64,000 bases of DNA from the human T2T-CHM13v2.0 reference genome, Homo sapiens. Location: NCBI RefSeq assembly GCF_009914755.1, contig NC_060947.1; one strand, given 5' to 3'. Under the pieces are notes generated by a model. The model ran no database searches. It was given only the letters and a program-made list of their open reading frames with translations, and had not been told where the DNA came from. Shown piece by piece: positions 60,010 to 60,152 of the stretch. Position 1 is the stretch's first letter; each line of letters begins with the position of its first letter. The position numbers and the translations under genes are program-made.

Positions 60010-60152
60010 TGATACAATTTGGACAAAGAAAGTTGTGCTTGTATCTGTTCCTAACCAAAGGCCAGCAGTGGATATGGCTGCAAACCCTCTGTTACATGTT
60101 ATATCCCATATCCTGAGCCCAAACTCATTATTTACATGCACAAACTAGTTAG
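60010..60152 (+). pseudogene. Fossil (pseudo)exon of the lost PAS-B domain, second part
   Basis: Translates (L)[31 protein letters not shown][5-nt deletion]-PKLIIYMHKLV(S) vs recalled NPAS2 [52 protein letters not shown] at 60008-60009, GT at 60153; phases 1-2. Confidence 0.93.

What the first reader, a model, noticed from the sequence alone, without database searches (positions are those of the whole stretch)
60010..60152. Fossil PAS-B exon ([13 protein letters not shown]) hidden in the PASD1 intron
Seen: AG|TG ATA CAA TTT GGA...CTA GTT AG|GT reads (L)[31 protein letters not shown], then a 13-nt stretch containing TGA, then PKLIIYMHKLV(S) in a shifted frame. Knowledge (recalled): NPAS2/CLOCK PAS-B has LMQ(F/Y)[32 protein letters not shown](K/R)PEFIVCTH.VVS, which is 148 nt with phases 1-2, and human PASD1 is described as lacking PAS-B. 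This relic has the same phases, is 143 nt (5-nt deletion) and keeps 13 consecutive identical residues. Inference: PASD1 lost PAS-B by exon skipping and decay rather than deletion. The relic is absent from the ORF track.
Basis: partly seen in the sequence, partly recalled or inferred. Interest (0 to 1): 0.9.

Follow-up and report, generated by a model that had tools for sequence, protein, structure and literature searches.

The report
Two fossil PAS-B exons in PASD1
A long intron of the human PASD1 gene still holds the decayed remains of two exons that once encoded most of a second PAS domain, showing how this relative of the circadian gene CLOCK lost that domain.

Summary
Window 60010-60152 (+) is a 143-nt relic of the last PAS-B exon ("X4") of the CLOCK/NPAS2/PASD1 family. 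It keeps AG|…|GT at the homologous junctions, a 5-nt deletion, a TGA, and 13 consecutive residues identical to CLOCK (PDB phmmer E 3e-8; tblastn E 5e-12 against 0.19 on a decoy).

It is the preceding PAS-B exon ("X3"), now 100 nt, with a 7-nt deletion and an in-frame TAA (E 1.8e-5 against 0.36 on the decoy).

The first PAS-B exon ("X2", 83 nt, phase 0→2) is still spliced as annotated exon 39768-39850, but its sequence has diverged. In CLOCK and NPAS2, X3 plus X4 is 107+148 = 255 nt, so skipping both keeps the frame.

None of 60 returned PASD1 proteins (58 with eutherian species names) contains X3 or X4. Platypus, bird, reptile and amphibian "PASD1" are full bHLH/PAS-A/PAS-B proteins.

The relics are not a retrocopy, because they lie 4.6 kb apart and are collinear with the flanking homologous exons. 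They are not a recent copy, because DNA identity is 61-63%.

This is a clean case of domain loss by exon skipping and decay. I found no report of it in five literature searches. Interest is moderate.

The parts
37257..37384 (+). Annotated PASD1 exon encoding the end of PAS-A, homolog of the CLOCK exon that ends ...VCFVATVRLATPQFIK. It ends in phase 0, as the CLOCK exon does.
   Evidence: exon translations and phases; alignment A1...EDRLYLVGNVCILRTQLLQ against platypus ...EEQICLVATVRLVTPQFLK.
39768..39850 (+). Annotated PASD1 exon, positional homolog of the first PAS-B exon (X2). It is 83 nt with phase 0->2, exactly as in CLOCK, and is still spliced. The sequence is remodelled: by my count of the human and platypus rows printed, about 2 of 27 residues are shared.
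   Evidence: length and phases; CLOCK X2 is 83 nt; other eutherians still end this exon with ...DHRS or ...EHRS; no sequence-level hit: E 0.062 on both real sequence and decoy, so the assignment rests on position, length and phase.
55333..55432 (+). Relic of the second PAS-B exon (X3, 107 nt in CLOCK and NPAS2), now 100 nt: cattAG|GGCAAC...GAATATT|GTgtat. It has a 7-nt deletion and an in-frame TAA, and reads ...GTSD*DFYHVDDLCLLFKCDEY.
   Evidence: tblastn of a CLOCK-region ORF, E 3e-5; DNA alignment with junctions; platypus X3 peptide E 1.8e-5, next real hit 0.50, decoy best 0.36; coordinates; 61/100 identical to CLOCK, 59/100 to NPAS2.
60010..60152 (+). Relic of the third and last PAS-B exon (X4, 148 nt in CLOCK and NPAS2), now 143 nt: ttaAG|TGATAC...AGTTAG|GTatta. 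It has a 5-nt deletion and a TGA. A 13-codon core, [13 protein letters not shown], is unchanged at the protein level. This is the finding.
62948..63035 (+). Annotated PASD1 exon that is spliced to the X2 homolog. It is the positional homolog of the exon after PAS-B in CLOCK (76 nt, phase 2->0). Here it is 88 nt, phase 2->0, and includes a poly-alanine run.

Best explanation
Window 60010-60152 and 55333-55432 are non-functional pseudoexons. They are the decayed remains of the second and third of the three exons that encoded the PAS-B domain in the ancestor of PASD1, a third paralog of CLOCK and NPAS2. In the lineage leading to placental mammals, splicing came to join the first PAS-B exon (phase 2 donor, 39850) directly to the exon after PAS-B (phase 2 acceptor, 62948). 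This leaves out 255 nt, or 85 codons, without changing the frame. Freed from selection, the two skipped exons picked up substitutions, small deletions and stop codons while staying in place in the intron. The protein that results keeps PAS-A and the exon-19-like coiled coil but lacks the PAS-B core. Shown here: the homology, junctions, order, phases and lesions, the absence of X3 and X4 from the returned eutherian proteins, and their presence in platypus, sauropsid and amphibian PASD1. Inferred: the order of events, with skipping before or after the first lesion. Also inferred: the functional consequence, which is loss of the PAS-B surfaces that CLOCK uses for its partners, fitting PASD1's published role as a repressor rather than an activator of CLOCK:BMAL1.
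For: Homology: CLOCK at E 3.1e-8 in PDB. The NPAS2 and CLOCK exons are the best non-self matches in the whole assembly. Platypus exon peptides give X4 at E 5e-12 and X3 at E 1.8e-5, against decoy bests of 0.19 and 0.36. Gene structure: AG and GT lie at the homologous junctions of both relics. Exon lengths are 83/107/148 nt in CLOCK and 107/148 nt in NPAS2. The retained PASD1 exon is 83 nt with the same phases, and the downstream exon has the same phases as CLOCK's. The order X2, X3, X4, next exon is collinear on the sense strand. Decay: including either relic or both gives premature stops. Second codon positions are 58/81 identical to CLOCK and 60/81 to NPAS2, against 80/85 between CLOCK and NPAS2. 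Third positions are 29/80 and 34/80 against 36/85. This is the pattern of long purifying selection followed by long neutral decay. Of 79 aligned codons, 41 still match platypus PASD1. Phylogenetic distribution: 0 of 60 proteins P0001-P0060 (58 named for eutherian species, 2 unnamed) are hit by the CLOCK X2, X3 or X4 peptides at E<1e-2, while 21 of 21 non-eutherian proteins (P0061-P0081) have all three. In alignment A1 the gap in all 13 eutherians spans exactly X3 plus X4. Ancestral state: platypus PASD1 has HLH, PAS, PAS_3 and PAS_11. All 120 listed of 442 relatives of its C-terminal half carry PAS_3 and PAS_11. Platypus PASD1 matches human NPAS2-locus and CLOCK-locus exons about equally, with PAS-A at 53-59%, so it is neither of them. 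Eutherian PASD1 groups with it in a quick tree, with SH-aLRT 99 for the split from fish CLOCK, fish NPAS2 and fly CLK.
Against: There is no transcript evidence either way. That the relics are never spliced is taken from the RefSeq table supplied with the finding, not tested. The X2 assignment rests on position, length and phase only, because its sequence gives no significant match. Absence from predicted protein models is weaker than absence from genomes, and an intact but skipped exon in some mammal would not show. No marsupial or afrotherian PASD1 was returned, so the timing is bounded only loosely. The tree is the quick search, not the finished careful one. It contains no tetrapod CLOCK or NPAS2, and the eutherian stem is very long (1.31 changes per column), so its placement could be affected by long-branch effects. 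The 13-codon perfect run is longer than uniform decay predicts (permutation P 0.0027), which pure neutral decay does not explain. The test is post hoc, however, because the run is what drew attention.
Confidence: 0.9

Rival explanations
1. The relics, or at least the 39-nt core of the X4 relic, are still under selection. They might act as a rarely included poison exon that triggers mRNA decay, as a splicing or transcriptional regulatory element, or as a remnant of an exon that stayed coding much later than the placental root and was then lost in parallel in several lineages.
For: The run of 13 unchanged codons within an exon where only 41 of 79 codons are unchanged is longer than in 99.7% of permutations. 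All 6 differences from NPAS2 in those 39 nt fall at third codon positions (by eye from the alignment). Both relics keep AG and GT. Their lengths sum to 243 nt, a multiple of 3.
Against: The test is post hoc, because the run is why the segment was noticed. The rest of both relics is heavily decayed, with three in-frame stops on joint inclusion. The donor sites have lost consensus positions (gtgtat and gtatta). 0 of 60 returned PASD1 proteins include the exons. No CpG is present in the core, which lowers its expected mutation rate (read from the sequence).
Confidence: 0.07
2. The segment is a fragment of a processed retrocopy, or a DNA-level copy, of CLOCK or NPAS2 that landed in the PASD1 intron by chance.
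For: Only the raw similarity to CLOCK and NPAS2.
Against: The two relics are separated by 4,577 bp of unrelated sequence. Each ends exactly at the ancestral exon junctions with AG and GT. Both are on the sense strand, in gene order, and lie between the positional homologs of the neighbouring exons. DNA identity to either paralog is only 149/243 and 153/243, with third positions saturated, so no recent transfer occurred. I saw no poly-A tail at the relic's end in the sequence read, where a (GTTTT)n run and an Alu-like stretch follow it. Target-site duplications were not searched for.
Confidence: 0.01
3. The similarity is a chance match in 64 kb of six-frame translation.
For: Pfam finds no domain in the 34-aa reading.
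Against: E 5e-12 and 1.8e-5 against decoy bests of 0.19 and 0.36. There are two independent collinear hits with matching junctions. The relic is the third-best locus for this exon in the 3.1-Gb assembly.
Confidence: 0.01

Closest known systems
PAS-B exons of human CLOCK (C4 locus) and NPAS2 (C2 locus). The CLOCK label is checked against PDB 4f3l/8osj. The NPAS2 label for the C2 locus is recalled from its chromosomal place, not given by a tool.
   Same: The three-exon layout is the same (83/107/148 nt), with the same junction positions and phases. The exon order is collinear. Over the first 31 residues of X4, 65-68% are identical, including [13 protein letters not shown].
   Different: The PASD1 copies of X3 and X4 carry 7-nt and 5-nt deletions and stop codons, and they are absent from the annotated mRNA. 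The introns are far larger: 15,482 and 4,577 bp against 214 and 2,072 bp in CLOCK.
Full-length 'PASD1' of platypus, birds, reptiles and amphibians (for example P0065, P0082, P0083, P0061, P0138)
   Same: It aligns with eutherian PASD1 along the whole length, including the exon-19-like coiled coil and the C-terminal motifs. It groups with eutherian PASD1 in the quick tree. NCBI and UniProt sources give it the same gene name.
   Different: It keeps bHLH, PAS-A and an intact PAS-B that is 88-96% identical to CLOCK's, and it evolves slowly. Eutherian PASD1 lacks X3 and X4 and sits on a stem of 1.31 changes per column. Synteny was not tested here.
Pseudoexons or exon 'death' in otherwise functional genes. 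This is a general, known phenomenon, recalled and not searched for here.
   Same: A constitutive exon stops being spliced and survives as a recognisable, decaying intronic relic with vestigial splice sites.
   Different: Here two adjacent exons were dropped together in a frame-preserving way, removing the core of a defined protein domain. The relics remain recognisable although every placental order sampled already lacks them in its proteins.

Membership tests
PAS-B-coding exon of the CLOCK/NPAS2/PASD1 bHLH-PAS subfamily (homology by descent) | Significant sequence similarity to PAS-B of family members | tested here: met
   (CLOCK E 3.1e-8); (X4 E 5e-12, X3 E 1.8e-5, decoys 0.19 and 0.36).
PAS-B-coding exon of the CLOCK/NPAS2/PASD1 bHLH-PAS subfamily (homology by descent) | Exon junctions at the same codon positions and phases as in the paralogs | tested here: met
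   AG and GT lie at the homologous positions of both relics, and the local frames at both ends match CLOCK and NPAS2.
PAS-B-coding exon of the CLOCK/NPAS2/PASD1 bHLH-PAS subfamily (homology by descent) | Correct place and order within the gene, on the sense strand, between the neighbouring homologous exons | tested here: met
Functional (coding) PAS-B exon | Open reading frame continuous with the flanking exons | tested here: not met
   inclusion of X3, X4 or both gives premature stops. Deletions of 7 and 5 nt are seen.
Functional (coding) PAS-B exon | Match to a curated PAS domain model (PAS_3 or PAS_11) | tested here: not met
   0 Pfam families at E<=10 for the 34-aa reading. The piece is short, so this is weak evidence. 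Platypus PASD1 matches both models.
Functional (coding) PAS-B exon | Presence in mature mRNA or protein | not testable with these tools
   There is no RNA data. The RefSeq table supplied with the finding lists no exon here, and 0 of 60 returned PASD1 proteins contain it.
Processed retrocopy fragment | Exons contiguous, without introns | tested here: not met
   4,577 bp separate the relics, and homology stops at the exon edges.
Processed retrocopy fragment | Poly-A tail and target-site duplications | not tested
   No dedicated search was run. I saw no poly-A run at the relic's end in the sequence read, where a (GTTTT)n run and an Alu-like stretch follow it.

The most novel reading that the evidence does not exclude
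The 39-nt core of the X4 relic ([13 protein letters not shown], about 60052-60090) is not simply a lucky survivor. Either it is held by present-day selection, so that the pseudoexon still works, for example as a regulated poison exon or a splicing or enhancer element of this testis and cancer gene. Or PAS-B stayed coding in the primate lineage far longer than the protein models suggest and was lost repeatedly in different mammalian orders.
Probability: 0.08. Interest if true: 0.65.

Novelty: new member of a known kind. Interest (0 to 1): 0.5.

Why it matters
PASD1 is a cancer/testis gene that represses CLOCK:BMAL1 through a region resembling CLOCK exon 19. This is as described in passages of PMC6406328 and PMC6310821 that cite Michael et al. 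2015, and the primary paper is not held in the library. The relics give a physical record of how an activator-type bHLH-PAS gene became that repressor. The PAS-B core was removed by a frame-preserving two-exon skip in the placental lineage, while platypus, birds, reptiles and amphibians keep a full-length, slowly evolving third CLOCK-family gene under the same name. This gives a datable series of lesions for comparative genomics. It also points to an under-studied full-length PASD1 in non-placental vertebrates that may act as a CLOCK-like partner of BMAL1. For genome annotation, it is a clear example of a domain-loss pseudoexon that gene tracks do not show.

Tried and rejected
1. The ORF listing of the intron gave 608 ORFs and nothing usable.

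2. The unfiltered tblastn of CLOCK-region ORFs against the PASD1 region was swamped by Alu matches. In one search I removed 483 of 2,754 ORFs as repeat-like, along with ORFs that had more than one strong hit. The filtered list still held non-collinear matches of similar E-value. I judged these repeat-derived by eye, with no repeat annotation, and set them aside (for example CLOCK-region 3053-3145 with window 28150-28242, and 82019-82090 with 23811-23882). E-values are not corrected for the number of queries, so I rely for significance.

3. The X2 peptide gives no significant match anywhere in the region (0.062 real, 0.062 decoy).

4. I searched for relics of the bHLH-like N-terminal exons. Peptides from platypus, tamandua, rhino, dog and squirrel and a profile of 11 non-primate eutherians found nothing significant. 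A minus-strand match containing an exact YPVKGDR at about 25201-25332 is unique in the genome but scores no better than the reversed decoy (8.1 against 8.5 bits). I rejected it as chance.

5. The rabbit PASD1 PAS_3 annotation turned out to lie in PAS-A, at residues 99-142, not in a retained PAS-B.

7. Marsupial PASD1 was not among the 80 hits or the best 120 of 442, so the therian or eutherian timing is open.

8. The careful tree search did not finish in the time allowed, so only the quick tree is reported.

NPAS2 was therefore examined over only 30 kb, and the PASD1 5' region before the window was not examined.

Full report
**Observation**

On the + strand, the frame of 60012 reads [34 protein letters not shown]. 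After the break, the frame of 60010 reads ...EPKLIIYMHKLV. The segment is bounded by ...ttaAG| and |GTatta.

A phmmer search of the 34-residue reading against all PDB chains gives CLOCK (4f3l_A, 8osj_M) at E 3.1e-8. The match covers chain positions 306-336, and [13 protein letters not shown] is identical. The next hits, ARNT and AHR PAS-B, lie at E 0.2 or higher. Pfam gives no hit for so short a piece.

The window's own assembly is held. There, the only matches below E 1 apart from the relic itself are one exon on contig C2 (68% identity, E 5e-7) and one on C4 (65%, E 4e-6). The C4 peptide is the CLOCK sequence of the PDB entries. I label the C2 locus NPAS2 from recall of its chromosomal place.

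**Junctions**

The three copies end at the same positions:
- NPAS2: ...acAG|TGATGCAG...GGTCAG|GTacc
- CLOCK: ...ttAG|TAATGCAA...GTAAG|GTaat
- Relic: ...taAG|TGATACAA...GTTAG|GTatt

The exon is 148 nt in both paralogs. The relic is 143 nt, with one 5-nt gap in the alignment.

**A second relic and the exon map**

I fetched 120 kb around CLOCK, 30 kb around the NPAS2 exon, and the downstream part of PASD1.

Comparing NPAS2 with CLOCK shows that PAS-B is encoded by three exons, which I call X2, X3 and X4:
- X2: 83 nt, phase 0→2
- X3: 107 nt, phase 2→1
- X4: 148 nt, phase 1→2

After removing 483 of 2,754 repeat-like ORFs, a tblastn of CLOCK-region ORFs against the PASD1 region gave four collinear sense-strand matches:
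- two annotated PAS-A exons (25981-26070 and 35802-35912)
- the finding itself (E 3e-10)
- a new match of CLOCK X3 to window 55366-55434, GTSD*DFYHVDDLCLLFKCDEYC against [23 protein letters not shown] (E 3e-5)

The same list held some non-collinear matches that I judged repeat-derived by eye and set aside.

The DNA alignment and coordinates define the X3 relic as 55333-55432. It is 100 nt long, reads cattAG|GGCAAC...GAATATT|GTgtat, and has a 7-nt deletion and an in-frame TAA.

For significance I used platypus PASD1 exon peptides against the 92-kb PASD1 region and against the same sequence reversed:

| Peptide | Best real hit | Next real hit | Best decoy hit |
|---|---|---|---|
| X4 | 5e-12 | 0.27 | 0.19 |
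| X3 | 1.8e-5 | 0.50 | 0.36 |
| X2 | 0.062 | – | 0.062 |

The X2 peptide finds nothing.

**The retained first PAS-B exon and the frame**

Annotated PASD1 exon 39768-39850 is 83 nt with phase 0→2, exactly like CLOCK X2. In non-primate eutherians it still ends ...DHRS or ...EHRS, like ...FLDHR|A. The human peptide, however, shares almost nothing with CLOCK. By my count of the human and platypus rows printed, about 2 of 27 residues match.

The exon spliced to it, 62948-63035, is 88 nt with phase 2→0. The CLOCK exon after PAS-B is 76 nt, also phase 2→0.

X3 plus X4 is 255 nt, or 85 codons. Skipping both together preserves the frame, while skipping either one alone would not. Including the relics today would give stops. 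X3 gives a TAA after seven codons, and X3 plus X4 gives three stops. The relic lengths sum to 243 nt, which I take to be coincidence.

**Not a retrocopy and not a recent copy**

The relics are 4,577 bp apart. They lie 15,482 bp after the X2 homolog and 2,795 bp before the next exon. Similarity stops at the exon edges.

| Comparison | All sites | 2nd codon positions | 3rd codon positions |
|---|---|---|---|
| Relics vs CLOCK | 149/243 | 58/81 | 29/80 |
| Relics vs NPAS2 | 153/243 | 60/81 | 34/80 |
| CLOCK vs NPAS2 | 193/255 | 80/85 | 36/85 |

Third positions are saturated in all three comparisons. This is what an exon looks like after being held by purifying selection since the paralogs split and then left to decay. 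About a quarter of the constrained sites have changed. From memory, that level is comparable with the oldest mammal-wide interspersed repeats, but I did not calibrate it here.

**Who has PAS-B**

A database search with human PASD1 (P0001) returned 80 hits, which with P0002 make the 81 proteins examined. I tested them with the CLOCK X2, X3 and X4 peptides.
- 0 of 60 (P0001-P0060) are hit at E<1e-2. Of these, 58 are named for eutherian species: primates, carnivores, perissodactyls, cetartiodactyls, bats, a mole, pangolins, lagomorphs, a squirrel and the xenarthran Tamandua. Two are unnamed.
- 21 of 21 non-eutherian proteins (P0061-P0081) have all three.

In an alignment of platypus with 13 eutherians, the eutherian gap coincides exactly with X3 plus X4.

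Pfam results:
- Human PASD1: only a PAS fold at residues 35-109.
- Platypus PASD1: HLH 10-60, PAS 87-148, PAS_3 264-350 and PAS_11 251-354.
- Rabbit: the PAS_3 call lies in PAS-A.

A search with the paralog-specific C-terminal half of platypus PASD1 listed the best 120 of 442 hits. They are platypus, turtles, birds, squamates, an alligator, caecilians, frogs and a newt. All carry PAS_3 and PAS_11, and most are named PASD1 by NCBI or UniProt. No marsupial appeared there or, so the loss is bracketed only between the monotreme split and the placental radiation.

**Is the full-length 'PASD1' really the ortholog?**

Searching the human assembly with platypus PASD1 gave 20 exon matches:
- 9 at the NPAS2 locus
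- 10 at the CLOCK locus
- 1 at the X4 relic

The NPAS2 and CLOCK matches have similar identity: bHLH 72% and 76%, PAS-A pieces 53-59%, and the exon-19-like region 46% and 53%. A true NPAS2 or CLOCK ortholog would match one of the two far better, so platypus PASD1 is a third paralog. That search used a stricter first look, so weaker matches to the other PASD1 exons may have been missed.

A quick maximum-likelihood tree of 26 proteins puts the ten eutherian PASD1 sequences with the seven sequences I labelled non-eutherian PASD1 and two softshell-turtle proteins named NPAS2. Their stem is 1.31 changes per column, against a median end branch of 0.18. This group is separated from fish NPAS2, fish CLOCK and fly CLK with SH-aLRT 99.

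There are three caveats. The careful search did not finish, no tetrapod CLOCK or NPAS2 was in the sample, and the long stem invites artefacts. Synteny could not be tested.

**The 13-residue run**

Against platypus PASD1, 41 of 79 aligned codons are unchanged and the longest unchanged run is 13. In 200,000 permutations of the identity pattern, a run that long arises with frequency 0.0027. By eye from the alignment, all six differences from NPAS2 in those 39 nt are at third positions, and the stretch has no CpG.

The test is post hoc, because the run is why the relic was seen. I treat it as an unexplained irregularity. It keeps a small probability on continuing constraint or a later loss, and it is not evidence of function.

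**Mechanism and meaning**

Shown here:
- Two collinear pseudoexons with ancestral junctions and disabling lesions.
- A frame-preserving skip.
- A retained but remodelled X2.
- Full-length orthologs outside placentals.

Inferred:
- In the stem of placentals, or of therians, splicing joined X2 to the post-PAS-B exon and the skipped exons decayed. Whether a lesion or a splicing change came first cannot be told from one genome.
- From established knowledge of the CLOCK:BMAL1 structure, PAS-B provides partner-contact surfaces. A protein with PAS-A and the exon-19-like coiled coil but no PAS-B core therefore fits the published description of PASD1 as a repressor of CLOCK:BMAL1 acting through exon-19 mimicry. 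I saw that description only in passages of PMC6406328 and PMC6310821 that cite Michael et al. 2015, which is not held.

**Novelty**

I ran five full-text searches:
- PASD1 with PAS-B
- PASD1 with CLOCK and paralog
- PASD1 with bHLH-PAS and evolution
- PASD1 with NPAS2, ortholog and genome duplication
- PASD1 with exon 19 and PAS-A

In the listings, and in the passages I opened in five of the papers, I saw no mention of relic PAS-B exons in PASD1 or of the way the domain was lost. The nearest is a table in PMC13663383 that lists a salamander transcript best matching newt PASD1, with bHLH, PAS-A and PAS-B (passages only). The library lacks most subscription journals, so this is absence from what was searched and not proof of absence.

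Pseudoexon relics are a known kind of thing, so this is a new and unusually legible member of that kind.

**Verdict**

Confidence in the main explanation is 0.9 and interest is 0.5.

Noticed in passing
window 15867-15902 (+), overlapping the annotated first coding exon 15844-15898: An ATG four bases upstream of the RefSeq start, in another frame, reads MNEDERGKEKRY. This resembles the N-terminus MDEEDREKEKRD of non-primate eutherian PASD1 (profile E 0.12, weak on its own). The two primates in alignment A1, human and mouse lemur, lack the bHLH-like first ~75 residues that the other eutherians keep, and Tamandua still scores as HLH. So the primate lineage may have lost the bHLH remnant in a second, later step with a change of start codon. 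No relic of the missing exon was found in the window.
   Followed up: partly
proteins P0061-P0192; not in the window: A slowly evolving, full-length bHLH/PAS-A/PAS-B gene named PASD1 is present in platypus, birds, turtles, squamates, an alligator, frogs, caecilians and a newt. It is roughly equidistant from human CLOCK and NPAS2. In the papers I searched it is mentioned only in passing. It may be an unstudied third CLOCK-type activator in non-placental tetrapods.
   Followed up: partly
tree; alignment A1: Eutherian PASD1 sits on a stem of 1.31 changes per column, against a median end branch of 0.18, and it stays fast-evolving within placentals (human against carnivores about 40% identity). This fits a testis-expressed X-linked gene under relaxed or positive selection.
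   Followed up: no
window 62948-63035 (+): The exon after the skipped region encodes a run of eight alanines in human (…EPAAAAAAAAISD). It is 12 nt longer than the CLOCK counterpart, and the other eutherians in A1 have two or three alanines there.
   Followed up: no
window 60219-60265 and 60266-60400 (+): About 65 bases after the X4 relic comes a (GTTTT)n run followed by what looks like an Alu element. This corresponds to the masked stretch 60165-60381 in the supplied table. The relic itself is not masked.
   Followed up: no
window 55333-55432 and 60010-60152: The two deletions, 7 nt and 5 nt, add to 12 nt. The relics together are therefore 243 nt, still a multiple of three, and joint inclusion would restore the downstream frame although three stops lie inside. 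This is probably coincidence.
   Followed up: partly
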